Origin: Ostreococcus lucimarinus | Taxonomy: Eukaryota | DNA length: 64,000 nucleotides | Reading direction: 5' to 3' (one strand) | NCBI GenBank assembly: GCA_000092065.1 | Contig: CP000587.1 | Shown: positions 21,935-63,769 of the stretch, piece after piece | Layout: each line of letters begins with the position of its first letter | Position numbering within the stretch: position 1 is the first letter of the stretch | Translations under genes and position numbers: made by a program | The notes under the pieces: generated by a model | What the model was told of the DNA's origin: nothing | Seen by the model: only the letters and a program-made list of their open reading frames with translations | The model's database searches: none

Positions 21935-22170
21935 AATCGAATCGGTCCCATGCCGCGGCATCCTCGGTCGTACGTCAGCGATTCCAACTTTTCGTGGAAT
22001 CCGCTCGCGTCGCGCAGGCACCCGGGCCAGATCTCGGCGTCGCTCGTCGCCTTCGAGCCTCGCCGCGACGTCGACATCGCGCGCGTCGCGTTCGTCGTCC
22101 CGCGGCTTGTGATCGTAATCTCACGAACGACCATCCGCGGCTTCGCCTCTCGCCTCTAACGGTAGGGGTC

Positions 22171-22566: not shown

Positions 22567-22836
22567 GACCCCCTCTCGCCCGAAATCGACATTCGGCGTC
22601 CGCGTCACCAATTCAACGAACTCGCCGGCATTGATCGGGCGCGACGTCACGCGTGCGCGCGAACGAAGCGAACGAAGCGAACGACGCGACCGCTCGATCG
22701 AACGGCGCGACGACGCGAACGACGCGACCGCTCGATCGAACGGCGCGACGGCGCGACGCGCGCCGGCGCGACGAATCGAATTCGCGTCGCGCGATTCGTT
22801 GAATTGCGATTGCGCATCGACGGTCGACGGTGAACC

Positions 22837-24609
22837 ATGGCGAACGCGCTGATCGCGTTTACGCTCGCGAACGCGGCGTGTGAGCTGGTGACGCCGATAC
22901 GGTACGCGCGGACGATGACGCTGTGGAGCCGAGGACGCGGGGATTGCGGAGAGACGGCGAAGATTGGAGCGGTGTGCGGGTACCTGATTCAAATCGCGGC
23001 GACGTTTACGTGGTACGAACTCGCGGTGCTGGGAATCATCCCGGGCGGCGCGAGCGACGGTACGGTGGACTTTGAATTGCGATTGATACATCAAATGTTC
23101 ACGTACGTGACATTCGGAGCGGTGTTCGCTATTTGGCTGGACGACCTCGCCGTCGTCGGCGCGCCCGTTTCGTGGTGCTCGTCGCTGGCGAGATTGTACC
23201 AGTTCTTCTCGACGCGAATGATCGCGTGCATGATGATCATGGCGAGTCGAAAAACGCCAACGGCGTGGCATCCGTTCTGGACCGCGGCCGGTTACACGGC
23301 CAGCGCGGTAAAGGGCGCGGGAACGGACGTAATTCTTAAATATGCGTACTACTTTTGCCGAGCTGGGTTCAGCGTTGTGTCCATGGCGATAGCGCTGACG
23401 GGGGTATTTTACTGGAATCCAGTTCGCGCCTGGTTTATCCGCGTAGAAGATTCTCAATCGCGCGCGAGTCGCACTTCGAACCGCAAGGAGATGATGCGAA
23501 CCATCTTTTGGCACTGTGCGTTTGGTCTGATTTTCAGCGCAATTTGGATCACGGCGTCGAATTCAGGAATTCCTCGCATCGATGCCATCAAGGGGGCATC
23601 TAGATCTACCATGTCTACGCATTACTTCGAGCCTTGGATTCCGGGACACCAGATCATCCACGCGAAGAATCACGGGCAAACGATGATAGCGGTTGCATAC
23701 GCCACTTTTATCGCGTACTCATTGAACTATATGGACGACGGCGGTTTGTGGATCTCAAAAGTTCTCTCAATTCAACTGCCCGCCCAGATTTACAACTTTT
23801 TTGTTGTTATTTACATCATCGTCGCCCTTGGTGGTGGAACCATCTTTCATCCAACCTGGTACACGAATGGTTGGGCCCCAAGCTGGGCGACACATCGTAT
23901 GCTGGATTGGCTCTTCTTCGTTGGTACTGGTCATCTGACTATTTTCGGTGTTCCACTCATCACGTACGCGCTTCTCAAGCATCTCAGTATTCCCGAATTT
24001 AAGCCGTATGCGACTGCTTCCATGGGCTTCTTTACCAAGTGCATGCGTCATGGAATGGTATCAATTTTGTTTTCTGGGCTGTGGATGATGGCCGTCAGTA
24101 CGGGCGTGCCCATGCCAGATGCCAAACTCACAGCCATGTTTGGACTTCCCCCTCTACACAAACTCGACGTGCGAGAAACTATCAAGATGCATCACGTCGA
24201 TATCATCGTGAGCATAATTATTATGGCGAACGGTTACGCCGTGCTGGCTCTCGACCGCGTTGTTCAGCTGGATTACAAGCTGCATCAATTCATCACTGTC
24301 GTATGGAAGCACTCGATGACCAGTCGATGGGTGTACTTTTGGTGTGCGAAAATTCTCTTGCATAGCGGCGAGCGTTTTACTACACCGAACGTTATCGCCT
24401 CGCTCTTGCGCTTCCGATCGCAAGTTAAGTCTACCAGCAGTGACAACTGGTTTTTCGTTTTGATCGCCGTCATGGAACTGTACTCTTTCACCGCGATGAT
24501 GCTCTTATTTCTCTTCACACTCACCCGAATGGCTCGTGCCAGTGTGGCTTACTTGAGAAATAACGGCCAAGGTCAGGTAAACTGGACAACCGGCCTGAAG
24601 CAAGAATAG
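22837..24609 (+). CDS. Polytopic membrane protein (about 12 TM segments), unknown family; likely paralogous to the N-terminal membrane region of the 26138-31984 megaprotein
   Basis: ATG verified at 22837. GC falls from about 62% at the 5' end to about 47% at the 3' end. By-eye matches to the megaprotein: NFFVVIYIIVALGGGTIFHP vs MPFFTIMTAALMNILFHHAF; HRMLDWLFFVGTGHLTIFG vs FHMFGVSLASMAHLFILG; EPWIP vs HSWIP. Confidence 0.6.
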   Translation: MANALIAFTLANAACELVTPIRYARTMTLWSRGRGDCGETAKIGAVCGYLIQIAATFTWYELAVLGIIPGGASDGTVDFELRLIHQMFTYVTFGAVFAIWLDDLAVVGAPVSWCSSLARLYQFFSTRMIACMMIMASRKTPTAWHPFWTAAGYTASAVKGAGTDVILKYAYYFCRAGFSVVSMAIALTGVFYWNPVRAWFIRVEDSQSRASRTSNRKEMMRTIFWHCAFGLIFSAIWITASNSGIPRIDAIKGASRSTMSTHYFEPWIPGHQIIHAKNHGQTMIAVAYATFIAYSLNYMDDGGLWISKVLSIQLPAQIYNFFVVIYIIVALGGGTIFHPTWYTNGWAPSWATHRMLDWLFFVGTGHLTIFGVPLITYALLKHLSIPEFKPYATASMGFFTKCMRHGMVSILFSGLWMMAVSTGVPMPDAKLTAMFGLPPLHKLDVRETIKMHHVDIIVSIIIMANGYAVLALDRVVQLDYKLHQFITVVWKHSMTSRWVYFWCAKILLHSGERFTTPNVIASLLRFRSQVKSTSSDNWFFVLIAVMELYSFTAMMLLFLFTLTRMARASVAYLRNNGQGQVNWTTGLKQE

Positions 24610-24806
24610 TCCGTGAGCAATGGACTTAATTAAAAACTTTCTGCGACTTACTACTCTTTACATCAACTGAAAACGGTCAAGAAGTGTTCGCACACCGGTT
24701 GCTATACAAAAGCCGTTTGTGCACTTTTGCCATAGCATTCTGGAACCTTGTGCGACTTCGAAAAGGATGCTTGATACAATACATATGAATATGCTATGAC
24801 TATTAA

Positions 24807-25859
24807 TTACGCTAATTTCGATGCTCGTGAAGACGAATGCGGCGCGCCATCGAGCGATTCATTGTCATGTAGTAGAACGCTGATGTATTCAAGCATCGCT
24901 TGCCCCGCCGTGTCATTCAGAATTTCCTCAAAGGAGAGTGATCCGCGATTCGAGATATCGATGCGCTCGAAAAGCTCTTTTATGTCTCGTGCGTCGACGC
25001 CCCACGTGAACAATTGCTCACGGAGCTCGCTCCCATCTAACGTGCCATTACCATCCTTATCCAGCACATCAAAAGCTGTCCGTAACGGCGTCTTACCGAT
25101 TCGCAAACGTACCAACGAATTCACTCTACCACAGATAGCTGCAAAATTGCGTTCTTTTCCGCTTTCCTCGGATCCGCACGCGTTGGAATACGCGGCAATG
25201 ATGACTATGGCAATGAGGGCACCCACGGGACCGTACACTGCTGGTATGACTAAAAACAGTGCAAGAGTTGCCCCTGTCGTGTACCGGTGCTCCTTAATAC
25301 CCGGAACATTCGTGAACGCAAATATAAACATTCTGGAATACACGAACCCCTGCGCGAGAACGAGCTGGTCGATGAAATTTTCCAATACGGCGCCGCTCGA
25401 GTCTGACGAAAGCGCGCCGGCTCCAATCAGCACTCGAAACGCTTTTTCGATGTGCGCGGTGTTTATAATGTGCAATGCAGGAGTTATAATAGACGGTGTC
25501 CCAAACGATGCGTCGATTTGAAGCATCGCCGTGAGCGCGATCACCAACACGCACGCCGCGCTCGCGCGCATCGTACCCCTCGCGCCGCCGCCGACCAGCA
25601 ACGCTCGCGCGCCCAACGTCAGCTCCATCGTTCCGAAGGCCACGTGCACCAACAGGCGCCTCGCTCGTCGACGATTCAGTCTAAATTTAGGATGCATGCG
25701 CTTCTTGCCCGCTCGAGCGTAGCCCAAGACGAGGAAAATCTCGAGCACGTACCCGATGACAATCACGGCAATCTTTTGCGTTCGCTGCTCGCTCGCCTCG
25801 CGCACGGTCCCACCGAACGCGTACGCACCGAGCGGGAGATCATACGTCCATGCGAACAT
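24807..25859 (-). CDS. Multi-pass membrane protein with a C-terminal EF-hand calcium-binding motif
   Basis: Hydrophobic helices through the first roughly 230 aa; EF-hand loop DKDGNGTLDGSELREQL; ATG verified at 25857-25859. About 50% GC. Confidence 0.6.
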   Translation of the reverse strand: MFAWTYDLPLGAYAFGGTVREASEQRTQKIAVIVIGYVLEIFLVLGYARAGKKRMHPKFRLNRRRARRLLVHVAFGTMELTLGARALLVGGGARGTMRASAACVLVIALTAMLQIDASFGTPSIITPALHIINTAHIEKAFRVLIGAGALSSDSSGAVLENFIDQLVLAQGFVYSRMFIFAFTNVPGIKEHRYTTGATLALFLVIPAVYGPVGALIAIVIIAAYSNACGSEESGKERNFAAICGRVNSLVRLRIGKTPLRTAFDVLDKDGNGTLDGSELREQLFTWGVDARDIKELFERIDISNRGSLSFEEILNDTAGQAMLEYISVLLHDNESLDGAPHSSSRASKLA

Positions 25860-26137
25860 TTACGCGTGCGTATCGAACGCGCGTCGTCGGGTCGAGACGA
25901 ACGCGTCGCGGTGTTCGGTTGGCCGTTGAGCGGGTTTGGGAAGTGCTTGTTTGAACGTTGTGCTTTTGCTTAAATAGTAAAACTGGTAGCGCGACAAACG
26001 CGTTATCGCACGATAAACGCGCTATCGTTGGGAATGTATCCAAAACTACGAATAGGCCGCAGGCTCGCGGCGGGAAGTCTTGCTCGTGGTGAGTTGGTTC
26101 ACCCACCGATTTTTGGAATTTTGACGCAACAGTGGCT

Positions 26138-29100
26138 TTACACACCAATGTTGCTCGGCACGCGTTCTGGGTGCATGTAAGGATATGCCTTTACTCCAAG
26201 CTTTGCGTTGCGGTTTTCGATCTGGCGTCCCATGGCACGCAGCTCAGAACGGAGATCTTGGAGAGCGGCGATTTCAGCCGGCGTAATCATCATGTCAGTG
26301 ATGTAATGTCCGACAAAAACCTCTTCTTTTGAGAACTGTGAAAGCGTCCAGCCAGTCGCCATCGTCTGCGCCGCTTGACCGACGCTCGGCAGCGCGTCGA
26401 TAACATCTTTTTCCGTCACCGGAACCTTCTTCGTCGGCGCAGGCTTGCGCATGATGAGCGGACGATTTGGACAATAAGAGTAATAGTCCCACTGGCTGAA
26501 GTTGACTGCGGCGTGAGTAAAAGAGCACGTGTACATCACTGACGTGCAGATATCAACAAGTTGATCGATTGAATCGATACTACCCGGCACACCGTGCTGA
26601 CTTCTGTCCGTGCCTTGGTATCCATAGCCTTGCATCTCAAGAATCATGCTCTGTATGTATGGATCGGCGGCAACTTCCGCGTCAGACGTGTAGTGCAGCT
26701 TGAAGATGCTTTTAGCGAAACGACGAAGACAGGCCCATGCTCGCAACGAGTCGTCACGATGATGATAACCTCTCAAATCTCCCTCACTTAGCACGCCACG
26801 TTTTTTAAAGGAGGTCGGAACGTGCAAATCGTCAAGCTTAAATCTCTGGTACGCTTTGCTCATCAAGTCCATGTGACCTCCTTGGCCAACTGCTACGACG
26901 CGATCAGTAACTCCTCCCGGAGATATTAACAACGACCGCCCAAGGGTATTGATGGCAATCACGTAGATGAGATGAGGACGCAATACCCGGTACACAGGAT
27001 GGTTTCTTGGAAGAGTTCTTTCGACGCAGACGGACCACGGTTCCATGAGCAAGTGCGTGCCCAATAGGTGCGATATCATCTGATGTACGTTTCCGTCAGA
27101 GCACATTAAGTGCGCTTTTGCGAGGAGCCACTCGTACTCGCCATCTTTTGGAGTCCATACCGGCGCGCTAGCACCAGACTGAAAGTGCTGGATGCAGATT
27201 GGGCGAAGTGCCGTGCTCTTGTCCGCAAAGAAGAGAGCCATGGAGTTCTCGACGCAGTAGCCTTGACCGCGCTTGATATCCTCAAGGATTTCATAGTCAA
27301 CCATGAATATGTGCCCTGCTGCCAACTCGCTTTCGAGCGTTTTGCCTGGAGGTAAAACGCCTCTTACATGTTCTTCGGTGACGCGAAACTTGGCTGGAAT
27401 TTGAGACACTTTGCGCACTTGATTTGGATGTGTTCCATTCATAAATTGACGACCAAACTCCTCGTCCGAACGCCAGTCTCTGATGATTGCAACAGGGGGG
27501 AGAGAAGCGTAAAGGCGATAGTAGTCATCCAGCGATTTAATTTCTTCGTCCTTGATCATTTCGGCGACGCCTTTATTTTCGAATCCCACAAAAGTATCGA
27601 CAAAGAAGTCCTTGTATTTTGTTGAGCTGAATTGCTCCGTGATGGGGAGCTTTGAGTGGTCGTCATATGTGCTATGATTTGGCAAGTACGAACCATTCGA
27701 CCAATCGAATTCCTTCTTCATGAACGAAAGGTACTGTTCAGTCGCATCGGCGATCAGTTGGCGACAAGCCAAGCTTGTTGTCGGCGTAATGGAGCACGGA
27801 AGAACGAATCGGACACCTTGGCCAATGTATCGCCACACATTCAACGTGAAACTCGTTGGAATTTGCGAAGTGAACGTCACATCTATCCGACCGCAATTCC
27901 AAGAGCTTTTCGAGGTTTGAGAAATAATGGCGTAAGCTGGCTCTCCAATATCGTCGGCGTGCACGAAGTGCGTGCTGATTGCTCCAGTTGCGAAGGAGTC
28001 ACCGAGATCATGCAGGACGATTTTGGGCGTAGCGCCACGCGTTCCGACGAATTGTAGCACCACATCACCGTCTATTCCAGACCCAGCGATTGAATGCGTC
28101 GTAACTTTGATCGTATACTTTTTTGACGCTTCAGGAGCGTAAACGTCTTTTCGTCCGCGGGTGAAAACGCGGCGAATTTTATATGACGTCTCGTAAACCA
28201 CCGCACGCGTCCAGTTCAAGGAGTTATAGTCTTGCGAGTTGATTGGTCGAGTGAGAGGCATGCAAGCCGGAGTACGATTCATACCGAACGATAAATTCTC
28301 AACCGAGTGTTGCGGGAGTGCGGCGTGAAGTCTCACGACTCCAACGTCGAGAAATTCAGTCCCCCAAGCTTTGTTGGGGTTGAAAATTTCCGCGGTATCC
28401 GAAGAAGTGGCCTCATATAACTGGATTTGAAGTCGGTACCTCACGGCTTCGCCCGCCACCTTGGTGCAGAACTCGTTTCGCAGATAGTCAGGCAAACGTT
28501 TCTCGTTCGGTAGTCGACGATATTTCATCATATGTGTCGTTGCGATCAGGTTCTGGTCAGCCTCGTCAGGCAAGAACGGCTCTTGACCGACGTCCGTCCC
28601 AGGGCCAGCTCCGTATGGAACGAGTCTGAACTTGCAGTATCGCTTTTTGCCATCCAAAGCATGGAATTCGCGACAAGTCTGCGAGTAATAATGTAAATCG
28701 CAGTACGAGTCGGGTGCCCTTCGCACCCCGCCGATACCAGCCTTAATGCCTGTGGGATACTTCATTCCCCATGCCTTGTAAGCGGAGTCGTTAAACGTCG
28801 CCATTTGAAATACGAACGGAAGAAACGAATCCAAGTTGAAAAATCCAGCGAATTCACCAGTGTTCAGGTGCAGATCGAATGGACTTTCGTCGACGGCATT
28901 TGAGAACTTCAGCGCACAACCTCGAATCTCAAGAGATGCGTCGTCATACATTTCCGAGTCGGCGAGCTTCACGCCGACGGCGTTCGAGTGCCTCAAGATG
29001 ATTGGCATCGTCTTGCCCTTCGTAAAGAAAGCATTTTTGGGCACCTTACTGTTCTCGATGACGGTGAATTGCCCGATCGCACCAACACCGACTGGATGGG

Positions 29101-31984
29101 TCGGGCGCCTTTTCTGCATCAGAGTGCCAAACACGAACATGAAAGCAATCTTCAACTGCATCACCAGCAACCCAAACGCATTGGGAGGTGGCATTGGAAT
29201 GGGAAACTCGGAATTCGAGGCTGCGTCGAACATTTCATCTCCGAAAGCGGCTTTATAACACTTGACCCAGTGATTTTGCCACTGTGACACCACCGCGACC
29301 AATGGCCTTGGAGAGGTGGATGGCGACTTCGACAAAATACGACCGAAACTCGACTTTCGCATCGTACTCATCTCATCCGGAACCACAATGCCCCGCTTAA
29401 ATAGTGCAGCAATGAACCTTACCTTGACGGTACTGAGCATCACCACTCGGTTTTTAACCGAATGGATCAACTTTTGAGTGGCTTTGGCGAATTGGAACCA
29501 GACATAAGTCCAACCCATGGTGTGGAGGAACAGCGAAAGCGTCAAGGGTGTACTGGTGTAACCGCAAAGCCACGAGAACCGCGAAACAAACACCAGCATG
29601 TGCATGAAATACACTCCACGGACGACTCTCATCACAGGTTTCAAGAATCGACCAAACGACGAGACGCCGCTTGTAAGGACTGAATGTGTCAGCGCGAGAG
29701 TCAAGAGACAGAAGTATCCAACGTGAAAGGAATCCTCGATGATACTGTCAGCCGATTCAAACGCGGAGAGAGTCATGAGCCGTCGACGAAGGAGGTCAAC
29801 CATCGAGTTCGAAAGAGCGCCCGCGCCAATAATACGCACTAACCTGATGAGAATATGCCAGATGTGAGATAATGCACCCAGTGTGCACATCATCTTCGTC
29901 GTCTTCTGGATTGCATGAAAACGCGACCTCGCCTCCTTCGACGTTTCGTGCGTATTCACGAGAGCAATGTGCTGCAAGTACACCCGAAGCCAAGCCAGGC
30001 ACAGTAAGATGATTTGAACATCAGTCTCGACGCTTTCTAGGTATGCATTTTCGAAGCGCTTTGCGTCACAACTGCGCAACGGGCATCCTAAGAGTATGTG
30101 AACGAGGGTTCGTGAAACTTTATCACTCTTGCCCGTCAGCGCCTTGTAATAGAGTGAGATAATCACAAACCACAAAGTGATAGTGCTCTGCGCAAAAGTA
30201 TTCATGGAGAGTGCGACTCCTTTTGGAAAAGAAGGGTTCATGAGATTGTGGGCAGCGAAAGATAACAGTAGAGGACTGATTGCGGACATTCTTGGAACTG
30301 GCTTCGGTGCGATCAAGTACGTGTCTGAAAGCGGCACAGGATGCGGTATACCACTCGTTAGCAGAGCGATCGGAAGCATAGCGCAGAGGACAAGGACCCC
30401 ATTTATCCATGCACACTTCTCTACCTGCCGTTGCAAAGCGAAATGCTTCAGCACAAGCATGCGCCAGCGTCCACGCAAATTCGTGAAACCCGTTCGCTGG
30501 CCGCTCGAATCCGGATTTCTGGAAAGGTGAACGGCGCCTCGTACGCACGCGTAGATTGAGAGCATCATGATGAGCCAGATAGTGAAATCAACCCCCACCC
30601 AATCACTGGGAGCGTGATGTAACTTTCGCGTCCACGGATTGGACATAGCACGAGCCACCAGAAAATGATCGCAGAGAGTGTAGGAAACAGACATTGCCAT
30701 CACGCCGTAGATCAATCTGGCGCTTCTTAGCGTTCGTTGGTCAGAAAATGCGCTCTTTCGAATCACGGCGGTGCTTATACCCACGAACGCGTGCAACACG
30801 ATGGAGTATTGCATCATTGAAATGCGAGCCAACTCGGCGTCGCCGCGCAGCAGCGCGTGTTCCTTGCTGAACCGTAAGCGCAGGACGGGAAAAGAAAGAG
30901 TTGACAAGCGGCGTGCGATGGTGCGGAGGATTGGAAAGTTGACCTTCAAAAGTGGTACCTGAAGGCGACCCCACTCTGGCATCATCACACCGGTGGCGAT
31001 GCCCTGGTACCACAAATTTGTGTACAGGAGACTCCCCAGTATGAACAAATGCGCCATGGATGCCAGGGAGACACCAAACATGTGGAATCCTTTGCGAGTC
31101 GGCCCGACGAAAATGGGACCGTTAAACGCGTGGTGAAAGAGAATGTTCATCAGGGCGGCCGTCATGATTGTGAAGAAGGGCATGTTGATAGAGAACCTGA
31201 ACCAGTCCGGCAGTGATCCGTGCGTTATGATGATCAACGCGAGAAGGCTCTTCGACGCTATCATGACGAACAGTGCGCCGAATGAACCTTGCCGCAGTGC
31301 AGGAATCCACGAATGAGATAGAATGCCAGTGACGAAGAGACCGGCGGAACACATACCGATGGTGTTTGGATTGCGCATGTTCGCCAAAGCGGAGAAGTGT
31401 CGACCGAACTCGAGTACGAAGATCGCCCCGCCGATGTAACAGATGCTAAATAGCACAGCCAGACGTTCGTGCATGATAAATAGCGTCGACGCTGATCGAG
31501 GTTTGGGAATCTTGAAATACCTGACCCGTTTCTCCGGCGGCACGTCCACCACGCCCAAGCGGCTCACGCGAATCAAACAAAATTTACCCAACGCGCCCAG
31601 ACCGTCCACGGACACCATGAGCGCTCCGACCGCGCAGTTCGGCATCTTCATCATCAACCGTAATCCATAAAGCGTCACGAACGCCAGCTGCGTTTCAGTC
31701 GCGTAATGCGTGTACGCGTCGCTCCCCGTGCACACGTACGACCACCCAATCGCGTGCACGCACGAGAACACGTACACCCACAGCGCCAGGCACGTCCCAT
31801 CGAACGAATTGAACACCAAATCGTTCGCGATCGCCCCGACGACCGCCGGCCGCGTTCGATCGCGCGCCACCGCCGCGTACGTCACGTACGCCGTCGACAG
31901 CACGTAATTGATTCCCTGCAACGCGTGGAAACGCCCGACCGACCATCCGGGCCTTAGCGCGTCGCTCGCCGCGTCGCTCGACAT
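26138..31984 (-). CDS. 1948-aa single-ORF fusion of an N-terminal polytopic membrane region (about aa 1-910), a catalase-fold heme domain (about aa 930-1280, AOS/HPL-like), a PLAT domain and a lipoxygenase
   Basis: Catalase core by eye: RRPTHPVGVGAIGQFTV (cf. ERVVHAKGAGAFGYFEV, distal His), MPIILRHSNAVGV (cf. TPIAVRFSTVAGE), LEIRGCALKF (cf. RDPRGFAVKF), FFNLDSFLPFVF (cf. FFIRDALLFPSFIH), proximal-Tyr region RAPDSYCDLH. PLAT: GSGIDGDVVLQFVGTRGATPKIVLHDLG. LOX: HQMISHLLGTHLLMEPW (His ligands), HAAVNFSQWDYYSYCPNRP (His/Asn ligands), C-terminus ...ERVPSNIGV (terminal Val, not Ile). ATG verified at 31982-31984. About 48-50% GC except the 5' 300 nt. Confidence 0.85.
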   Translation of the reverse strand: MSSDAASDALRPGWSVGRFHALQGINYVLSTAYVTYAAVARDRTRPAVVGAIANDLVFNSFDGTCLALWVYVFSCVHAIGWSYVCTGSDAYTHYATETQLAFVTLYGLRLMMKMPNCAVGALMVSVDGLGALGKFCLIRVSRLGVVDVPPEKRVRYFKIPKPRSASTLFIMHERLAVLFSICYIGGAIFVLEFGRHFSALANMRNPNTIGMCSAGLFVTGILSHSWIPALRQGSFGALFVMIASKSLLALIIITHGSLPDWFRFSINMPFFTIMTAALMNILFHHAFNGPIFVGPTRKGFHMFGVSLASMAHLFILGSLLYTNLWYQGIATGVMMPEWGRLQVPLLKVNFPILRTIARRLSTLSFPVLRLRFSKEHALLRGDAELARISMMQYSIVLHAFVGISTAVIRKSAFSDQRTLRSARLIYGVMAMSVSYTLCDHFLVARAMSNPWTRKLHHAPSDWVGVDFTIWLIMMLSIYACVRGAVHLSRNPDSSGQRTGFTNLRGRWRMLVLKHFALQRQVEKCAWINGVLVLCAMLPIALLTSGIPHPVPLSDTYLIAPKPVPRMSAISPLLLSFAAHNLMNPSFPKGVALSMNTFAQSTITLWFVIISLYYKALTGKSDKVSRTLVHILLGCPLRSCDAKRFENAYLESVETDVQIILLCLAWLRVYLQHIALVNTHETSKEARSRFHAIQKTTKMMCTLGALSHIWHILIRLVRIIGAGALSNSMVDLLRRRLMTLSAFESADSIIEDSFHVGYFCLLTLALTHSVLTSGVSSFGRFLKPVMRVVRGVYFMHMLVFVSRFSWLCGYTSTPLTLSLFLHTMGWTYVWFQFAKATQKLIHSVKNRVVMLSTVKVRFIAALFKRGIVVPDEMSTMRKSSFGRILSKSPSTSPRPLVAVVSQWQNHWVKCYKAAFGDEMFDAASNSEFPIPMPPPNAFGLLVMQLKIAFMFVFGTLMQKRRPTHPVGVGAIGQFTVIENSKVPKNAFFTKGKTMPIILRHSNAVGVKLADSEMYDDASLEIRGCALKFSNAVDESPFDLHLNTGEFAGFFNLDSFLPFVFQMATFNDSAYKAWGMKYPTGIKAGIGGVRRAPDSYCDLHYYSQTCREFHALDGKKRYCKFRLVPYGAGPGTDVGQEPFLPDEADQNLIATTHMMKYRRLPNEKRLPDYLRNEFCTKVAGEAVRYRLQIQLYEATSSDTAEIFNPNKAWGTEFLDVGVVRLHAALPQHSVENLSFGMNRTPACMPLTRPINSQDYNSLNWTRAVVYETSYKIRRVFTRGRKDVYAPEASKKYTIKVTTHSIAGSGIDGDVVLQFVGTRGATPKIVLHDLGDSFATGAISTHFVHADDIGEPAYAIISQTSKSSWNCGRIDVTFTSQIPTSFTLNVWRYIGQGVRFVLPCSITPTTSLACRQLIADATEQYLSFMKKEFDWSNGSYLPNHSTYDDHSKLPITEQFSSTKYKDFFVDTFVGFENKGVAEMIKDEEIKSLDDYYRLYASLPPVAIIRDWRSDEEFGRQFMNGTHPNQVRKVSQIPAKFRVTEEHVRGVLPPGKTLESELAAGHIFMVDYEILEDIKRGQGYCVENSMALFFADKSTALRPICIQHFQSGASAPVWTPKDGEYEWLLAKAHLMCSDGNVHQMISHLLGTHLLMEPWSVCVERTLPRNHPVYRVLRPHLIYVIAINTLGRSLLISPGGVTDRVVAVGQGGHMDLMSKAYQRFKLDDLHVPTSFKKRGVLSEGDLRGYHHRDDSLRAWACLRRFAKSIFKLHYTSDAEVAADPYIQSMILEMQGYGYQGTDRSQHGVPGSIDSIDQLVDICTSVMYTCSFTHAAVNFSQWDYYSYCPNRPLIMRKPAPTKKVPVTEKDVIDALPSVGQAAQTMATGWTLSQFSKEEVFVGHYITDMMITPAEIAALQDLRSELRAMGRQIENRNAKLGVKAYPYMHPERVPSNIGV

Positions 31985-32532
31985 CGCGTCCCGCGCGTCC
32001 GCCTCTTTTCGCGACCGTCTCCGCGATCGCTCGCGTCGCGTCGCCGTGCGCGCGCGCGTCTGTGTCGTGATACCGCCGCGGAATCAAATTTAATTAATCG
32101 ATTCGATCGCTAACGGTCGCGCGCGATCTTCAGCGCGCGCCGTCGACGCGACGCGACGCGCGCCCGCGCGCGGGTCGCGGATTCGCGAAAAACAAAATCG
32201 CCGCGGGCCGGCGCGCGATCCTCGGCGCGCGCGCCGTCACGCGCGATGTATCATCTTAGTCATTCTTAGCGCTTGGTTTAGCTCACTGTATAGTAGCGCG
32301 TCTTTGTAGTCTCAGCTCGTCCGACGCTCGTCTCGCCGAAACGAAACAAACTGCCTCAAAACCCGATACAGGGATCGCCGCAAAGATGGCCTCGCCGTTC
32401 GCCGTCCCGCCGCTCCGGCGGCGCGCCGCCGTCCTCGCGGCGTGGGAAACCATCACAGACGTTATCGCGGACGAAGGTGCGCGCGCGCGCGCGCGGTGAC
32501 GAGAAAACGACGTCGACGAAGACGAGCACGCG

Positions 32533-35500
32533 ATGTGTCGGATGTGTCGAAAGCGACCTCGCGAGCGTGGACTGACGGACGCTGCGGCGCGACGAACAGG
32601 ACTGGCGTCGACGCATGACGTGCAAACGTTGATAAAGTCAATATTTGCTCACGTGCGAGACGCGCGATGGCGGGTGAAGGAGGTGCGGGAGGCGATGGAG
32701 ACGGCGACGAGCGCCGCGAGCGGGAGAGACGCGGGATTTCGAAGCGTCTTCGTCGCGGCGTGCGGGAAAGCGGTGGAAAAGGGAGGGTTTAGTGAACACG
32801 AGTGTTACGTCGCGAGTCGATTGATGTGCGCCGTGATGAGCGCGATGACGTTGGAGAGCGAGGATGGGTTGTTGGCGAAGTCGCTGGAGACGCTCGCGAG
32901 GCTGCGAGCGAAGGGCGCCAAGGCGTTCTCGGCTAAGGCGTTTAAACAGATGGTGCTCGCGCACGGGGGGGATGTGGTTTTGGATAGATACATCGAGCTT
33001 GTGCAAAGTAGTGGTGGGACGAATCCGGTTCTGTGCGCGTTGGCGCACGAAGCGTTCGCCGTGGCCAAAACGACTTCTCGGCGACCAGCCGAGATCCGCA
33101 AGGCGCTTTTGGAGGTGTTTTGTACCGTCGTGCTTGGCGCCGACGCGAAAGTCGCCAAAGTTGGAGTGTCGAGCGAGTCGTTTGCGTCCATTTTGACGAA
33201 TGCTACGAGCGAAGAACTCAACGAGACCTTGCTCCCAAAAGCCGTTCGACAGTTGCGTCGCAGTCCCGAAGCTGTCTTGCCCGCCGTTCTCGGCGCGTTG
33301 AAGACGTTGAGCGCGGACGTGAGCAACATGTGCGCGGAAATGGGGCCGGTAATACTGCCTCTGGCGAAGCACGCAAACGAAGATCGTCGCGCGATGGCTC
33401 TGGAGATCGTAAGCGCCCTCGTGAATGGTTCTGCCGATGCGAGCGTCGTCAAGGAGCACATTTTTGCGCCGTGCACGAGCGAGTTTTCTTCAGGACCTCG
33501 ACCGAAGGAGTGGACCGCTCGCACCGGTTTGTACGCTGTGATTGCGTCCTGTTCGCAGTTGAGCGACCGCAAAGCGAGAGAGTTGCTCAGCGCCGACGCC
33601 ATCGGTGTTCTCTCAGCGGAACTGACCGTGGAAAAGCAACTCGAAGCGAAAGCCGCAGCGCTCAGCGCTCTAACTGCATGGCTTCGTCATGCGAGTGAAT
33701 GCCCAGAATCGCTCGCTAGTCTGGTAAAGGAGGCTTCGAAGGACACGACGGAGCGCTGCTCGACATTTCAGTGCGTAGCACAGGCTTTGCGCGTAAACTC
33801 TGCGCTTCCGGCAGGGCTATCAGGCGTCGTCGCCAACTTGTCTCCGATTGCGGTGGCGGGCAGTGGTAAGCTAGCACTACGTGCCGAGGGCTTAAGCTCA
33901 CTATACATACTTCTGCGCGTTGCAGCAGAAGACCCATCTACTGCTGAAGCGCTGAAGACGAACAAGGTTTGGGATTCTGTCGCGGCGTACTTTGAGCCTG
34001 CGACCATGACACGCTTGGACGACGAGAGTACTGAAATTCTTGCCGCGACGGGTCAGTCCATCATGGCTTTCCACGCCTCACATGCGGCGAAGATGGGGTT
34101 GGTAGATTCGGTGATTCAAGCGATTGCTTTTTTGACTGTGCACGCTCACTCACGAACACGAGCGGCGGCGAGAGAGGCTGTGCGAGGCGCAATTTCTGTT
34201 GGACAACCATCCGTCAAAATGATCCAAGGGCTGCGACATTGGCTCGCTTGGGCCGAGGCTGGAAAGTGGGAGGGTATGATGGACGACACGTTCCCGTCGC
34301 AATACGCCGGTGCTTCACTGATAGCATATTGCGAGTTCAATGAAGACGAGCAAGCCCTGACACTTCCGAATGATTTGATCGGCGAAATGCTCTTACTTGC
34401 ACATCACCCGCTCGTCAAAGCGTCTGATGGCCGACGTGGAGGCGCGTGGTCCGCAATTTTATCGCTCGTGGGGGATAACATCGACGTCGAGGACGCTGCG
34501 ATCGTGTGTAGTACCATTATGGGTGACAAGGGGTTGCGCAGCGAGTCCAGCATGGAACGTTCGTCGGCGCGTAGAGCAATCGTGTCGTTTGCAAGACTGG
34601 GCACTGAGACTGGACGTGTTGTTCTGGACACTATCGTGCCCCGTGCGTTAGAGATGCTCGATACATCGATACACGACGCCCTGAGTGCGAAGGATGTACT
34701 CATCTACAACACAGCACCGGGCTCGCTCTCCACAGATCCCGCGAACAAGCCTGCGGTTTCGACATCGACGCAACAACCGAAGAAGGAATCGAATGTGGTC
34801 TCTTTACGACCGAGCCAGGCATCAGCTGGAGCAAAGAAGACAAGTTCAAAGCCTTCGACGAAAGCGATTGATCCACGAGAAGCAGCGCGACGCGCGCAGC
34901 TAGCCGAAGAAGACACTGTTCGATCGCGAGTCAAGGAAGTCGTCCGCAAGTTTGTTGATGGACTCGAGGTCTTGACTGCTACTTTAGAAGGTCTCGGGCA
35001 TAAAGCGCGTGCGTGTGTGTGCGATATTGCGTATTCGAACGTCTTTCCACTGTTAAAGTCGAAAATCATCCCACAGTCTACGGTTCTGAAAGCAGTAGAG
35101 GCACTCGTGTATTGCGCCGCGGCGAGAGGGGCAGCGATGATGCTTTCGTTTCCACGGGAACGACAAGCCGAAGCTTTAGCCATTCGGTTGGGGGCAATGA
35201 GCTTAAACGGGACGCCCGCACCCGTTGAGATCGGCTTGAACGGTAAACCTGTATCGGTGGACATGCATACGGTTGGATTCGAGAGTCGCATCTTGGGACA
35301 AGCAATTGAGCTTGCACAAGAAGCCTTGGAGGACAATGATCCAGATCCACTTCCGGTACCTATATTTGGCGTGATGTTCCCTGTCATCGCGCACGCTCTA
35401 CTTCTTCCTGAAGCTCCAAAGAGTTTGCGCGTTGATGCTCTCGGTTTACTTGCAGCACACGCCGGTGAAGATGAAGACGGTGTGCCAATCTTGCCGAGCG

Positions 35501-38500
35501 CCGCGGCCGCTGTACGACTGTTGTTGAACACGCTCGCGAATGCGACACCAGATCTAGTAAACATAGCAAAACCCATTCTGTCAGACGTGTCGCGATACTT
35601 GCGCACGAGCGATGACGTTCTCGCATTGGTCGACGGTGTCGAAAGTGAGTACAGAGCGGTTAGAGGTGCCTCTCTATCAGGTTTGCTGAACGCGCCGCTG
35701 AATTTTGCTTCCATGGAACAGCAAACGGCTAACATCGCGATTGCAAAGCTTTTTATTGCGCGTTTCGACGCCGACGAAGTAAATAAGCAGACGGCTGAAG
35801 AGGTTTGGGTATTGTGCGGACTTTCAGACACGATTCCGTCTCCTGTGGATGTCCTGCCGTTTCTCACACACGCAAGCGGTTCCGTTAGGGGGAGTGCCGT
35901 GGAAGCTTTTGCGGCGACGATTGCTGCGCAAGAAAACGGCATGTCGATTTCACTACCGAAGCTTTTCGGCGAATTCAACTCATGTGAGCATGGGTATGGG
36001 CGAGAAGCGCTCATCAAGGGACTCGGCGCTTGTACGCCAAGTCTTAGCGCCCGTGATCTCCCGCTCGTATCCACATTTCTCACAAAGGTTCTCTCTGATG
36101 TCGACGCTGGCGTGCGTTCCGCGACGGTAGAAACCGGACGCTTGATGATTGACGCACACGGTGCAGAGCACACGCAACAGCTACTTGCTGTTTACGAAGC
36201 ATACTTCGACCGAGGAGGAAGTAGAGGTAATCTATCGGAAGAAGCAGAGGATCACGTTCGACAAGGCGTCATCGTTTTTCTCGGCGCACTTGCGGTGCAC
36301 TTAGACAAAGAGGATGAGAAAGTTCGCGCAATCTTGACTCGCTTGCTCGAGGTTTTAAGCACACCATCCGAAGCTGTACAGCGTTCAGTGGCGGATTGTT
36401 TACCTCCTCTCATGAAGAAGCTCAGTGCTGAAGAGCAACAAGCTTTGGTTGATGCTCTGCTGCAGCAACTCACGACGAGCCATGCGTATGCCGATCGGCG
36501 AGGCGCGGCGTTTGGCCTGGCAGGTGCCGTCAAGGGCATCGGTATGAGCAGTCTCAAAGGCATGAACATCATGGACACTCTGAAGGTAGCGATCGAGGAC
36601 AAAAAGAATCCCGAATCGAGAGAAGGCGCGGTTATGGCTTTTGAATTATTCTGCACGAGGTTGGGCAGGCTTTTTGAGCCATACGTCGTGAACATTCTGC
36701 CCATGCTTCTAGTTTGTTTTGGCGACGTTACTGCCCCCGTTCGCGAAGCCACGCAAGCGGCAGCGCGCGTAATCATGGCAAATTTATCTGCGCAAGGCGT
36801 GAAGCTTGTTTTACCGGCACTTCTTTGCGGGGTCGATGACGACAAATGGCGTACGAAACAAGGTTCGGTTCAACTGCTCGGCGCGATGTCAAACTGTGCC
36901 CCGAAACAGCTTGGAGCGTGCTTACCTCAGATCGTGCCTCGTCTGAGCGAAACGTTGATTGATACCCATCCGAAAGTCGTAGAGGCTGCAACGCAAGCCC
37001 TCAAGGCAGTGGGTGACGTTATTCGCAACCCAGAGATTATCGCTTTGAGTAGCTATCTCCTCGGCGCTATTCAAGATCCCACAAGACGTACAAAAGCATG
37101 CTTGGACGTACTGCTCGAAACGACGTTCGTGAACGTGGTCGACGCGCCTTCGCTCGCACTCATCGTACCGGTCTTGGTTCGCGGTTTGCGCGAACAGAAA
37201 GCAGATATGAAGAAGAAAGCGGCTAAGATCGCTGGGAACATGAGTGCTCTCGTCGCCGATCCAAAAGACATGGCTCCGTACATCCCCATGCTCGTCCCCG
37301 AGCTCAAGAAGGCTCTGATGGACCCAATTCCAGAAGTACGCGGCGTTGCCGCGCAAGCACTCGCAGGACTGATTAACGGTCTAGGTGAAGAGTACTTTGA
37401 AGACTTACTCCCGTGGATGATGCGCGCCATGCAAAGCGACGGCACAAGCGTGGAGCGCTCTGGCGCCGCGCAAGGTTTGTCTGAGTGCTTGGCCGTACTT
37501 AGCACGGATCACTTCGACGCGCTCTTCCCAGAAATCCTTTCTGGTTGTGCCAACGCATCATCGGCCGTGAGAGAAGGTCACTTGACTCTACTGCGATTCC
37601 TACCGATATCACTTGGTGACGTCTTTGAGGCACATCTCGTCGACGCACTAGCGTGCGTTCTCCAGGGCTTGGCTGATGAAGACGAACCCGTTCGAGAAGC
37701 CGCGCTGAACGCGGGCAGAGTATTTGTCGAAGAATTTTCTCACAGTGGTAGTTCGCTAGATTTGATTTTGCCGGCGATCGAAGACGGTATCGTCTCCGAT
37801 AACTGGCGCATTCGCCAATCCTCTGTTGAGCTTCTCGGTTCGATGTTGTTCCGCATTATCGGCTCGAGTGGCAAGGTGCGCGTTGAGGGTGGTGATGATG
37901 CCGAAGGCATCTCCACCGAAGCACAAGGACAAATGCTCAGTAATACGTTGGGTGAAATTCGTCATCACAACTTGCTTGCCGCTGTTTACATTCTTAGATC
38001 GGACGGAACTTTGAGCGTGCGAAACGCTGCAGTTCACATTTGGAAAACCGTCGTCGCGAACACTCCGAAGACTCTCAGAGTCATATTACCTTTACTCATG
38101 CAGCGCGTGATTTCAACAATGTCTGGCGGTTCGGACGATCGTCAGCAGACTGCGAGTCGATGTCTTGGCGATGTCGTGCGAAAGCTGGGCGAACGCGTGC
38201 TCGTATCCGTCTTGCCAATCATGCGAGAAGGGTTAAAGAGCGAGCTCGCCGAGCATCGCGAAGGCGTCGCCTTGGGTTTGGCTGAAATATTATTTGCGGC
38301 GACAGATTCTCAACTCGAAAATCATTACGACGTCGTCATTCCTACCGTTCAAGACGCGCTGTGCGATGAAGATGAAAGGGTACGTAGCGCCGCTGGCGCG
38401 GCGTTCGACAAACTCTTTCAGCACGGCGGCGGACACGCCGCGGGTGAGATCGTCCCGGCACTCCTGGAACAGCTGGAGTCGAGCCCGACCGTACTCGAGG

Positions 38501-63740: not shown

Positions 63741-63769
63741 CTGCAACTTTTTTAGAGCTACGCGGTGCA

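What the first reader, a model, noticed from the sequence alone, without database searches (positions are those of the whole stretch)
26138..31984. Single-ORF megaprotein fusing a polytopic membrane region, a catalase-fold heme domain, PLAT and a lipoxygenase
Natural fusions of a catalase-related hemoprotein (allene oxide synthase or hydroperoxide lyase) with a lipoxygenase are known from corals and a few cyanobacteria, where they make allene oxides and other oxylipins. This 1948-aa ORF has that core: the catalase distal-His, central and proximal-Tyr segments are recognisable, followed by PLAT and a LOX with all iron-ligand motifs. Two things are unusual. It is preceded in-frame by about 900 aa containing roughly 15-20 hydrophobic helices with no family I can recognise, so the oxylipin machinery would be tethered to, or gated by, a large integral-membrane module. 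The LOX also ends in Val rather than the canonical Ile; a C-terminal Val is the hallmark of manganese lipoxygenases. I do not know of this three-part architecture in any described protein.
Basis: partly seen in the sequence, partly recalled or inferred. Interest (0 to 1): 0.9.

Follow-up and report, generated by a model that had tools for sequence, protein, structure and literature searches.

The report
Membrane-embedded allene-oxide-synthase–lipoxygenase fusion in Ostreococcus
A tiny marine green alga (Ostreococcus lucimarinus) encodes, in one 1948-codon reading frame, a coral-type two-enzyme machine for making fatty-acid signals, welded to a previously unrecognised 900-residue membrane domain that the public gene model leaves out; it matters because such enzymes were known only as soluble proteins.

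Summary
Window 26138-31984 (minus strand) is one 1948-aa ORF in an Ostreococcus lucimarinus CCE9901 chromosome.

Residues 902-1945 align end to end with the Plexaura allene oxide synthase-lipoxygenase fusion (PDB 3dy5, E 6e-161). All heme residues (Thr962-His963, Asn1041, Arg1260/Tyr1264) and metal ligands (His1639, His1644, His1824, Asn1828, C-terminal Val1948) are present.

Residues 1-~865 form about 20 hydrophobic helices. They match nothing in Pfam, NCBIfam or PDB, and only five representatives among 1.84 billion proteins, all relatives.

The region is coding and belongs to the same gene:
- Two other Ostreococcus-like clades have 1955- and 1961-aa single ORFs (N-terminal region 51% identical, dN/dS 0.36).
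- A more distant lineage reads in frame from membrane region into heme domain.
- The variable linker never acquires a stop.

The public model (XP_001418901.1, 1031 aa) starts at Met918, inside conserved AOS sequence.

The gene always sits beside a 590-aa polytopic orphan, and often beside a membrane EF-hand protein.

C-terminal Val does not argue for manganese. Relatives end in Ile, a PLAT domain is present, and animal Fe-LOXs match far better than Mn-LOXs.

Verdict: a new, membrane-integrated variant of a known fusion. Function is inferred and no transcript evidence was available.

The parts
26138..31984 (-). Complete ORF: 1948 codons plus the stop at 26138-26140. It encodes membrane region, linker, catalase-related heme domain, PLAT and lipoxygenase.
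   Evidence: define the ORF. The identical 1948-aa product is called on 22 contigs from many samples and is in the protein collection as P0020/P0029.
29390..31984 (-). N-terminal polytopic membrane region, residues 1 to about 865, with about 20 hydrophobic helices. It is an orphan domain restricted to Ostreococcus and related picoalgae.
   Evidence: Hydropathy is shown, and helices. There is no hit in Pfam, NCBIfam or PDB. Only 5 hits were found among 1.84e9 representative proteins, all relatives. Against L002 it is 51% identical with dN/dS 0.36.
31205..31984 (-). Best-conserved N-terminal module, residues 1-260. Motifs are FH-LQG-NYV, VD-G-L-K, P-E-RV and IPALRQG. In one lineage it also occurs as a stand-alone 301-aa protein.
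   Evidence: It is 70% identical with dN/dS 0.24 against L002. Invariant columns are listed. BLASTP against the L001 ORF gives 1e-10. The P0010 cluster and locus L010 show the stand-alone form.
29282..29389 (-). Poorly conserved Ser/Pro/Lys-rich linker between the last hydrophobic helix and the start of AOS homology, residues about 866-901.
   Evidence: The spacing between anchor motifs is 59, 63, 68, 52 and 49 residues in five lineages. It is always in frame and free of stops.
28169..29281 (-). Catalase-related hydroperoxide-converting heme domain (coral AOS/HPL type), residues 902-1272. Key residues are Thr962-His963 (29096-29101), Asn1041 (28862-28864), Phe1054 at the coral Leu150/Phe150 position (28823-28825), Arg1260 and Tyr1264 (28193-28207).
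   Evidence: Matches to 1u5u (E 2e-51) and 3dy5 come. The residue-by-residue alignment is, residue positions, and conservation in relatives.
29231..29233 (-). Met918, the start codon of the public 1031-aa model (XP_001418901.1 / A4S026). It lies 16 residues inside the region homologous to the coral AOS N-terminus.
   Evidence: P0001 starts MFDAASNSEF. Homology to coral residues 3-20 begins at Trp902.
27785..28123 (-). PLAT / beta-barrel domain, residues about 1288-1400.
   Evidence: Pfam PF01477 matches residues 1290-1382. The region is colinear with residues 9 onward of 8R-LOX 3fg1 and with 5-LOX 3o8y.
26141..27784 (-). Lipoxygenase catalytic domain, residues about 1401-1948. Metal ligands are His1639, His1644, His1824, Asn1828 and the carboxylate of C-terminal Val1948. 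Gly1682 occupies the Ala/Gly stereocontrol position and Leu1686 is the clamp.
   Evidence: Pfam PF00305 gives E 1.3e-67. Alignment is and positions. Gly427/Leu431 of 8R-LOX are defined in PMC13059375.
22837..24609 (+). Neighbouring gene: a 590-aa polytopic membrane orphan that accompanies the fusion gene in every lineage examined.
   Evidence: There is no Pfam or PDB hit. Its homologue lies next to the fusion gene in L001, L009, L010, L011, L002-L004 and L007.
24807..25859 (-). Neighbouring gene: a 350-aa protein with several N-terminal hydrophobic helices and a C-terminal EF-hand pair (residues 258-314).
   Evidence: Pfam EF-hand_7 gives 6.5e-10. It is syntenic with the fusion gene in three Ostreococcus-type clades and in L011.

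Best explanation
This is a single gene for an integral-membrane, bifunctional oxylipin synthase.

Shown:
- One ORF encodes four parts in order.
- The first part is an orphan region of about 20 helices (about 865 aa).
- A variable linker follows.
- Next comes a catalase-related heme domain with every residue that defines the coral hydroperoxide-converting enzymes.
- The last part is a PLAT barrel plus a lipoxygenase with a complete metal site.

Inferred mechanism:
1. The lipoxygenase abstracts a bis-allylic hydrogen from a polyunsaturated acyl chain and adds O2. Gly at the Ala/Gly switch predicts R stereochemistry.
2. The hydroperoxide passes directly to the adjacent heme domain. That domain either dehydrates it to an allene oxide or, as in the coral lyase that shares Phe at position 150, cleaves the chain.
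3. The N-terminal region holds the pair permanently in a membrane. This differs from the transient, Ca2+-driven PLAT docking that I recall for soluble LOXs. It would let the enzyme work on membrane-resident substrate, probably esterified galactolipid chains.
4. It probably acts together with the two membrane proteins encoded next door, one of which carries EF-hands and could supply Ca2+ control.

The metal is most likely iron.
For: Architecture and catalytic residues.

The membrane region is coding and under purifying selection. dN/dS is 0.24-0.57 in sub-regions and 0.36 overall, with only 7 gap columns across the whole-protein alignment against the 1955-aa homologue.

The same single-ORF architecture is found elsewhere:
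- P0006/L002, 1955 aa.
- L007, 1961 aa.
- L009, a distant lineage with about 19-26% identity in the membrane part, reads in frame through the junction.
- L011 has the same colinear arrangement.

The linker varies in length (49-68 aa) and sequence but never contains a stop or a frame change in the three Ostreococcus-type clades and in L009.

The annotated start, Met918, truncates conserved AOS sequence.

The neighbourhood is conserved. The 590-aa orphan is present in all lineages. The membrane EF-hand protein is present in four.

Gly1682 and Leu1686 correspond to Gly427 and Leu431 of 8R-LOX.

Phe1054 aligns, without gaps from Asn137, with the Leu150 (AOS) / Phe150 (lyase) determinant (PMC5617202).

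Context from a sister species (preprint 10.64898/2026.02.10.705097):
- O. mediterraneus has a single putative LOX gene, and it is expressed.
- It accumulates oxidised MGDGs, including MGDG 13:3-O/16:4.
- A C13 oxo-acyl chain is what a catalase-type lyase would leave from a 13-hydroperoxy-18:4 chain. That lyase keeps the hydroperoxide carbon on the carboxyl fragment (8R-HpETE gives a C8 oxo-acid). This link is my inference.

Iron rather than manganese.
Against: - No transcript, proteome or activity data were available.
- The public eukaryotic gene model is the short soluble form.
- In-frame Met872 and Met875 could start a soluble isoform.
- In the L001 lineage a genuine 1-nt deletion separates a 743-aa membrane protein from an 1182-aa protein that carries the remaining C-terminal part of the membrane region (about 120 residues) plus AOS-LOX. 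Both stay under purifying selection, so covalent fusion is not indispensable.
- In the L009/L010 lineage the heme domain has lost His, Asn and Tyr while the membrane part remains conserved, so the membrane part may have a role independent of AOS chemistry.
- The fold and topology of the membrane region could not be determined (pLDDT 37 and 41.5).
- Substrate, product, stereochemistry, metal and subcellular location are all inferred.
- The preprint's authors found that LOX expression explained oxidised-MGDG levels poorly.
Confidence: 0.7

Rival explanations
1. Two products from one locus. The membrane region and the AOS-LOX are made as separate proteins, through an internal promoter or start near Met872, Met875 or Met918, or through processing in the linker. 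They would at most associate non-covalently.
For: - The public model XP_001418901.1 is 1031 aa.
- The L001 lineage is naturally split by a frameshift found in four independent assemblies, with both ORFs conserved.
- L010 carries a free-standing 301-aa N-module.
- The linker is poorly conserved and looks flexible.
Against: - There is no stop or frame change between the parts in the three Ostreococcus-type clades and in L009, despite saturated synonymous divergence (dS 1.1-1.5) and linker length changes.
- Met918 cuts conserved AOS sequence.
- Any transcript starting upstream of 31984 necessarily encodes the fusion.
- In L001 the downstream protein still carries the remaining C-terminal part of the membrane region (about 120 residues).
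Confidence: 0.2
2. The lipoxygenase uses manganese, as the first reader suggested from the C-terminal Val.
For: - The C-terminal residue is Val in all three Ostreococcus-type clades.
- Crystallised Mn-LOXs use a C-terminal Val.
Against: - Val occurs 'very occasionally' as the C-terminal ligand among LOXs in general, and fungal Mn-LOXs lack the beta-barrel that is present here.
- Mn-LOX 5fno matches at E 2.8e-19, against 1e-97 to 1e-105 for 5-LOX, 11R-LOX and 8R-LOX.
- Sister lineages L001, L009 and L010 end in Ile.
Confidence: 0.08
3. The N-terminal region is an active module rather than an anchor. It could be a lipid-presenting groove or scramblase, a transporter or channel for substrate or product, or an intramembrane acyl-hydrolase. 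The oxylipin domains would be accessory to it.
For: - At about 865 aa and 20 helices it is far larger than an anchor needs to be.
- Polar residues are invariant within or near helices, for example His20, Gln23, Asn26, Asp127, Lys134, Arg153, Glu173 and Arg231-Gln232.
- Between L001 and L009 it is more conserved (67% identity, dN/dS 0.18) than the enzyme part (57%, 0.29). It persists where the heme site is dead.
- It is accompanied by two more membrane proteins.
Against: - No similarity to any transporter, channel, scramblase or hydrolase family was found in Pfam, NCBIfam or PDB.
- There is no internal repeat symmetry of the kind I would expect in many transporters.
- No usable structure model was obtained.
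- Within Ostreococcus it evolves four to seven times faster at non-synonymous sites, relative to dS, than the enzyme domains.
Confidence: 0.3
4. The upstream 900 codons are a non-functional extension of the ORF, either a chance open frame or a decaying remnant.
For: - The public annotation omits it.
- It has no family hit.
Against: - A 900-codon open frame at 53% GC is not chance (my calculation).
- dN/dS is 0.36, with 51% identity and almost no indels against a homologue whose dS is above 1.
- Homologous membrane regions are kept in six lineages.
Confidence: 0.02

Closest known systems
Coral allene oxide synthase-lipoxygenase fusion (Plexaura homomalla AOS-8R-LOX, PDB 3dy5/1u5u/3fg1; also Capnella imbricata AOS-LOX and HPL-LOX)
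   Same: - The domain order is the same: catalase-related heme domain, then PLAT, then LOX.
- The alignment is full-length and colinear (E 6e-161).
- The Thr-His distal pair, distal Asn, proximal Arg/Tyr, LOX metal ligands, Gly at the stereocontrol site and the Leu clamp are all shared.
- Position 150 is Phe, as in the Capnella lyase.
   Different: - The coral proteins are about 1066 aa. Coral 8-LOX activities are reported as soluble (PMC5793058), and P. homomalla cAOS-LOX as monomeric (PMC5617202).
- This protein carries an extra polytopic membrane region of about 865 aa at its N-terminus.
- It ends in Val rather than Ile.
- It comes from a green alga.
- The residues at the second AOS/lyase determinant (coral NL or YS 176-177) are Ala-Gly, matching neither.
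Cyanobacterial catalase-related hemoprotein-LOX fusions (Anabaena PCC 7120 mini-LOX fusion; Acaryochloris marina AOS)
   Same: A catalase-related hydroperoxide-converting domain is coupled to a LOX in a photosynthetic microbe. This rests on references cited in PMC10813956 and PMC13059375, and on my own knowledge.
   Different: As I recall, the cyanobacterial fusions lack both a PLAT domain (mini-LOX) and any membrane region. They were not compared by sequence here.
Public model XP_001418901.1 / UniProt A4S026 ('predicted protein', 'Lipoxygenase domain-containing protein', O. lucimarinus)
   Same: It is the same gene, 100% identical over residues 918-1948.
   Different: - The model omits residues 1-917, that is the whole membrane region, the linker and the first 16 residues of AOS homology.
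- The heme domain is not named in any source label.
Unannotated metagenomic relatives with other N-terminal add-ons: P0004 (PDZ + AOS-like + LOX, 1341 aa) and P0005 (about 300-aa hydrophobic region + AOS-like domain, 621 aa)
   Same: They show that the catalase-related/LOX core is combined with different targeting or anchoring modules in uncultured organisms.
   Different: - Their N-terminal parts are unrelated to the one here.
- P0005 has no LOX and has Ser-His instead of Thr-His.
- P0004 has lost the distal His, and its proximal Tyr is replaced by His.
Fungal manganese lipoxygenases (PDB 5fno, 5fx8)
   Same: The C-terminal Val serves as metal ligand.
   Different: - They have no PLAT barrel.
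- Sequence similarity is distant (E 3e-19 and 9e-14).
- They have no heme partner and no membrane region.

Membership tests
Catalase-related AOS/HPL-lipoxygenase fusion proteins (coral type) | One polypeptide with an N-terminal catalase-related heme domain followed by PLAT and a lipoxygenase domain | tested here: met
   Residues 902-1945 align with residues 3-1063 of 3dy5 (E 6.4e-161).
Catalase-related AOS/HPL-lipoxygenase fusion proteins (coral type) | Distal Thr-His pair. This is the hallmark of catalase-related hemoproteins that react with fatty-acid hydroperoxides (Mashhadi et al. 2016, cited). | tested here: met
   Thr962-His963 in RRPTHPVG align with coral Thr66-His67. The pair is conserved in L002, L007 and L001.
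Catalase-related AOS/HPL-lipoxygenase fusion proteins (coral type) | Distal Asn (coral Asn137), and proximal Tyr heme ligand with its Arg partner (coral Tyr353 and Arg349, numbering from my recollection) | tested here: met
   Asn1041, Arg1260 and Tyr1264 are present.
Catalase-related AOS/HPL-lipoxygenase fusion proteins (coral type) | Complete LOX metal site: three His, one Asn and the C-terminal carboxylate | tested here: met
   His1639, His1644, His1824, Asn1828 and C-terminal Val1948 are present. The terminal residue is Val instead of Ile.
Catalase-related AOS/HPL-lipoxygenase fusion proteins (coral type) | Soluble protein without transmembrane segments | tested here: not met
   About 20 hydrophobic helices lie in residues 1-865.
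Catalase-related AOS/HPL-lipoxygenase fusion proteins (coral type) | Enzymatic conversion of a PUFA to a hydroperoxide, and of that to an allene oxide or aldehydes | not testable with these tools
   This needs recombinant enzyme assays.
True (monofunctional) catalases, Pfam PF00199 | Score above the Pfam gathering threshold, and a Val-His distal motif (as I recall it) | tested here: not met
   The score is 20.6 bits against a cut-off of 25, over only 79 residues. The distal pair is Thr-His.
Manganese lipoxygenases | C-terminal Val as metal ligand | tested here: met
   The protein ends in ...NIGV.
Manganese lipoxygenases | No N-terminal beta-barrel, and membership of the fungal Mn-LOX sequence group | tested here: not met
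   PLAT is present. 5fno matches at E 2.8e-19 against 3.6e-97 for 5-LOX.
Manganese lipoxygenases | Manganese in the purified enzyme | not testable with these tools
   This needs ICP-MS or EPR.
Any described transporter, channel or membrane-enzyme family (for residues 1-865) | Significant sequence or profile match | tested here: not met
   - Pfam at E<=10 on five homologues gave no shared family.
- NCBIfam gave none.
- A PDB profile search gave a best E of 0.72.
- phmmer against 1.84e9 representatives found only relatives.
Any described transporter, channel or membrane-enzyme family (for residues 1-865) | Recognisable fold | tested here: inconclusive
   AlphaFold2 with 9- and 11-sequence alignments gave pLDDT 37.3 and 41.5. 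The models were too poor for a fold search.

The most novel reading that the evidence does not exclude
The fusion protein, the 590-aa polytopic orphan and the membrane EF-hand protein would form a Ca2+-controlled membrane machine specific to Mamiellophyceae. The 20-helix domain would present esterified galactolipid acyl chains to the LOX. The catalase-type heme domain would then cleave or cyclise the lipid-bound hydroperoxide in situ. This would produce the oxidised MGDGs reported in Ostreococcus, including 13-oxo-tridecatrienoyl-MGDG, that track susceptibility to prasinovirus infection. It would be the first integral-membrane lipoxygenase pathway, and the enzymatic origin of algal esterified oxylipins.
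Probability: 0.2. Interest if true: 0.85.

Novelty: new variant of a known kind. Interest (0 to 1): 0.66.

Why it matters
As far as I know, lipoxygenases and their hydroperoxide-converting partners are described as soluble or peripherally docking enzymes. Coral 8-LOX activities are reported as soluble. How they reach membrane-bound substrate is a central regulatory question; from my own knowledge the usual answers are Ca2+/PLAT docking and FLAP for 5-LOX.

A naturally membrane-integrated AOS/HPL-LOX would be a new solution to that problem. Three features make it stand out:
- It is conserved across several picoalgal lineages.
- It is embedded in a conserved three-gene membrane neighbourhood.
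- It gives a concrete candidate for the unexplained origin of oxidised galactolipids in Ostreococcus. The authors of a 2026 preprint state that the canonical oxylipin pathway 'appears incomplete' there.

It also shows that the coral-type fusion is not confined to cnidarians and cyanobacteria.

There is a practical point too. The public gene model of a reference genome is missing 47% of the protein, and the heme domain is unlabelled.

Tried and rejected
1. Word-indexed homologue searches with the N-terminal 894 aa and with residues 1-260 found nothing. One reason is that the 90% cluster holding the full-length protein is represented by the truncated 1031-aa model. The exhaustive phmmer search did find relatives.

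2. AlphaFold2 of residues 1-900 (9-sequence alignment) and 1-300 (11 sequences) gave pLDDT 37.3 and 41.5. I did not run fold searches, because matches to such models are meaningless.

3. I tested whether the 590-aa neighbour is a paralogue of the N-terminal region, prompted by shared 'SGIP/TGVP' motifs. hhalign gave a probability of 8%, so this is rejected.

4. I looked for internal repeats in the membrane region. hhalign between quarters found none.

5. I considered an intron to repair the L001 frameshift (a 92-nt GT..AG candidate at L001 9910-10001). This is rejected because homology to L009 runs straight through the site and localises a 1-nt deletion. Programmed -1 frameshifting is unlikely, since by inspection of the sequence there is no slippery heptamer in the 43-nt overlap.

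6. I checked for viral carriage. There was no match in IMG/VR.

A 4-sequence alignment of residues 1-260 worked.

8. Mashhadi et al. 2016 (PMC5267355) is not held.

9. I could not establish whether O. tauri has an annotated full-length orthologue, or the taxonomic identity of the metagenomic lineages L001, L009, L010 and L011.

10. A crude positive-inside count did not give a consistent topology.
Full report
**1. What is in the sequence**

The window is eukaryotic. The neighbouring long ORFs encode GCN1 (2609 aa, uninterrupted), an ABC1 kinase, a DnaJ/TPR protein, CobW, an ACBP-containing protein and a DEAD-box helicase. The C-terminal 1031 residues of the ORF under study are 100% identical to 'predicted protein [Ostreococcus lucimarinus CCE9901]' (XP_001418901.1, UniProt A4S026).

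The ORF runs on the minus strand from 31984 to 26138. It has 1948 codons, an ATG start and no internal stop, and no rival ORF longer than 141 aa overlaps it.

It lies in a local low-GC stretch (0.50-0.56 between about 22 and 40 kb, against 0.59-0.71 on either side). GC3 exceeds GC2 over its whole length.

**2. The enzymatic core**

Pfam finds Lipoxygenase strongly (E 1.3e-67). PLAT and Catalase fall just under their thresholds. The comparison with solved structures settles the matter:
- Residues 902-1945 align colinearly with residues 3-1063 of the 1066-residue Plexaura homomalla allene oxide synthase-lipoxygenase fusion (3dy5, E 6.4e-161).
- The heme part alone aligns with 1u5u (E 2e-51).
- The PLAT+LOX part aligns with 8R-LOX (E 1.9e-105), 11R-LOX and human 5-LOX (about 3e-97).

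Residue by residue, these coral AOS positions are kept:
- distal Thr66-His67 (Thr962-His963)
- Asn137 (Asn1041)
- the Tyr193 position (Tyr1100)
- the proximal Arg/Tyr pair (Arg1260, Tyr1264)

It is therefore a hydroperoxide-converting catalase relative, not a catalase.

In the LOX the ligands are the second and third His of H-x4-H-x4-H (His1639, His1644), then His1824, Asn1828 and the C-terminal carboxylate (Val1948). Gly1682 followed four residues later by Leu1686 corresponds to Gly427/Leu431 of 8R-LOX. That is the Ala/Gly switch, which usually gives R products when it is Gly (PMC13059375).

At the position where coral AOS has Leu150 and the Capnella hydroperoxide lyase has Phe150, this protein has Phe1054. 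At the second determinant (NL versus YS 176-177) it has Ala-Gly, which matches neither. AOS versus lyase chemistry therefore cannot be called from sequence. I lean slightly toward lyase-like or mixed chemistry.

**3. The N-terminal 865 residues**

They are strongly hydrophobic and poor in acidic residues. They contain about 18-20 hydrophobic segments conserved across five homologues, and appear as about 20 long helices in the otherwise unreliable AlphaFold model.

Nothing known matches them:
- Pfam and NCBIfam on the protein
- Pfam at E<=10 on five homologues
- a PDB profile search

An exhaustive phmmer search of 1.84 billion representative proteins returned five hits, all relatives. I found no internal repeats.

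**4. Is it coding, and is it the same gene?**

The best hit, P0006, is a 1955-aa protein with the same layout. A codon alignment with its contig (L002) gives the following:

| Region | aa identity | dN/dS |
|---|---|---|
| Membrane region, overall | 51% | 0.36 |
| First 250 residues | 70% | 0.24 |
| Heme domain | 80% | 0.08 |
| LOX | 84% | 0.05 |

dS is above 1 everywhere, and there are only 7 gap columns in 1948.

Further lineages:
- A third clade (L007) has a 1961-aa single ORF.
- In L009 (GC 0.62; 19-26% identity in the membrane part) the frame runs from the membrane region through the heme domain and PLAT into the LOX.
- In L011 (GC 0.45) the same order is seen, with frame changes that may be assembly errors.

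Between the last helix and the first AOS residue the linker differs in length (49-68 residues between anchor motifs) and sequence in every lineage. It never contains a stop or a frame change in the three Ostreococcus-type clades or in L009.

The public start codon, Met918, lies 16 residues inside the segment that aligns with coral residues 3-20. That segment is conserved (W-x-N-x-W...Y/F-G) in all relatives. The 1031-aa model is therefore too short at the very least.

The exact 1948-aa product is called on 22 contigs from many environmental and culture samples.

I could not examine transcripts or peptides. In-frame Met872 and Met875 leave room for an additional soluble isoform.

**5. Lineage variation that bears on function**

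- *L001 lineage.* A 1-nt deletion just after the conserved '...ECKHAL' splits the gene into a 743-aa ORF and an 1182-aa ORF. The site lies about 120 residues before the C-terminal end of the membrane region. The identical sequence at that site occurs in four independent assemblies, and many 743/1182 variants exist. Against L009, both halves are under purifying selection (dN/dS 0.18, 0.16 and 0.29). Covalent linkage is therefore dispensable in at least one lineage, but the two parts stay together.
- *L009/L010 lineage.* The heme domain has lost the distal His, the Asn and the proximal Tyr, while the LOX ligands and the membrane region are retained. L010 also has a free-standing 301-aa copy of the N-terminal module, facing a fusion gene on the other strand.

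These observations suggest that the membrane region is more than a passive tag.

**6. Conserved neighbourhood**

The 590-aa ORF at 22837-24609 (+) is another polytopic orphan. Its homologue (24% identity, E 5e-22) lies next to the fusion gene in every lineage recovered, although orientation and side differ.

The 350-aa ORF at 24807-25859 (-) has several hydrophobic helices followed by an EF-hand pair. It accompanies the gene in three Ostreococcus-type clades and in L011.

Persistence of this trio through rearrangements and through divergence to about 22-25% identity argues for a functional unit. This is an inference.

**7. Mechanism proposed**

Shown: the domain composition, the intact catalytic residues, selection on every part, and the conserved neighbours.

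Inferred:
- The LOX makes a fatty-acid hydroperoxide, predicted R.
- The heme domain converts it at once to an allene oxide or to chain-cleavage products.
- The membrane region fixes the pair in a membrane, so that substrate is taken from the bilayer, possibly without prior lipase action.
- The EF-hand neighbour may confer Ca2+ control, which I recall being exerted through PLAT docking in soluble LOXs.

External context comes from a 2026 preprint on O. mediterraneus. It reports a single, expressed putative LOX gene, no clear canonical downstream enzymes, and oxidised MGDGs including MGDG 13:3-O/16:4.

The coral catalase-type lyase leaves the hydroperoxide carbon on the carboxyl fragment (8R-HpETE gives a C8 oxo-acid plus a C12 aldehyde). 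The same chemistry on an esterified 13-hydroperoxy-18:4 chain would leave exactly a 13-carbon, three-double-bond oxo-acyl chain. That match is my inference. I have not shown that the preprint's gene is the orthologue, and the authors found that LOX expression correlates poorly with the lipids.

**8. The manganese idea**

- The C-terminal ligand of LOXs is 'usually Ile, very occasionally Val'.
- Fungal Mn-LOXs have Val but lack the beta-barrel.
- This enzyme has a PLAT domain.
- It resembles animal Fe-LOXs about 80 orders of magnitude better in E-value than Mn-LOXs.
- Its sister lineages end in Ile.

Iron is much the likelier metal.

**9. Comparison with what is known, and novelty**

The core is a member of the coral-type AOS/HPL-LOX fusion family. 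All sequence-defined features are met; activity is untested.

What differs is the membrane region, the alga as host, the terminal Val and the conserved membrane-protein neighbours. My literature searches on AOS-LOX fusions, on Ostreococcus lipoxygenase and oxylipins, and on Thr-His hemoproteins found no description of this protein or architecture.

The sequence is public, but in truncated, unlabelled form. Full-length versions exist only as unnamed or 'arachidonate 5-lipoxygenase' metagenome gene calls.

I classify it as a new variant of a known kind.

**10. Limits**

There are no transcript, protein, activity, localisation or metal data. The fold and topology of the membrane region are unresolved. 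The taxonomy of the metagenomic relatives is unknown. Whether O. tauri or other annotated genomes already carry a full-length model could not be checked.

Noticed in passing
L001 9940-10010 (also L012, L013, L014): In one related lineage a 1-nt deletion splits the gene into overlapping 743-aa and 1182-aa ORFs. The sequence at the site is identical in four independent assemblies, and both ORFs are still under purifying selection. This is either a natural gene fission or an unusual expression mechanism. There is no slippery heptamer in the 43-nt overlap.
   Followed up: partly
L009 9935-15660; L010 5223-6128 and 6206-9493: A high-GC lineage has a fusion gene whose heme domain has lost the distal His, the Asn and the proximal Tyr, while the LOX ligands are kept. 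L009 also has a 1-nt frameshift in a C-run inside the LOX. L010 has a stand-alone 301-aa copy of the N-terminal module (P0010 cluster, 9 members) convergent with a fusion gene. L009 and L010 look mosaic relative to each other.
   Followed up: partly
window 22837-24609 (+) and 24807-25859 (-): Two uncharacterised membrane proteins travel with the fusion gene across lineages: a 590-aa polytopic orphan, and a 350-aa protein with hydrophobic helices and an EF-hand pair. In the window they lie downstream of the gene, but in L002, L003, L004 and L007 they lie upstream.
   Followed up: partly
window 29231-29233: The public model XP_001418901.1 / A4S026 starts at Met918. It omits 917 residues and truncates the conserved AOS N-terminus, so the reference annotation needs correction.
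   Followed up: yes
P0004, P0003 (metagenome proteins): Other uncultured organisms combine an AOS-like domain and a LOX with different N-terminal parts, for example two PDZ-type domains in P0004 (1341 aa). In both proteins the proximal Tyr position is His. P0004 also lacks the distal His.
   Followed up: no
P0005 (621 aa, Logan assembly): A high-GC protein joins an unrelated hydrophobic region of about 300 aa to a coral-AOS-like domain (33% identity, E 5e-50) that has Ser-His instead of Thr-His and no LOX. It is an independent case of a membrane-anchored catalase-related hemoprotein.
   Followed up: partly
P0007 (135 aa): This is a copy of residues 697-830 in which many residues differ in the way C-to-T conversion would produce (S/L to F, H to Y, A to V, T to I). 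It probably comes from an assembly of bisulfite-type or deaminated reads, not from a real variant.
   Followed up: no
window 22000-40000: There is a local low-GC stretch (0.50-0.56) within a 0.59-0.71 GC background. It covers the 590-aa orphan, the EF-hand gene, the fusion gene and GCN1.
   Followed up: no
window 44146-45990 (+) and 44160-44251: A 614-aa ORF combines a TMEM135-like cysteine-rich region with a C-terminal acyl-CoA-binding domain. ARAGORN calls a 92-nt tRNA-Gly(CCC) that overlaps its start, but Rfam does not confirm it. The tRNA-Gly(CCC) at 63670-63741 is confirmed.
   Followed up: no
L011 2352-3341: In the low-GC relative, fragments with weak patatin (lipase) and EF-hand signatures lie a few kb upstream of the orphan / EF-hand / fusion gene trio.
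   Followed up: no
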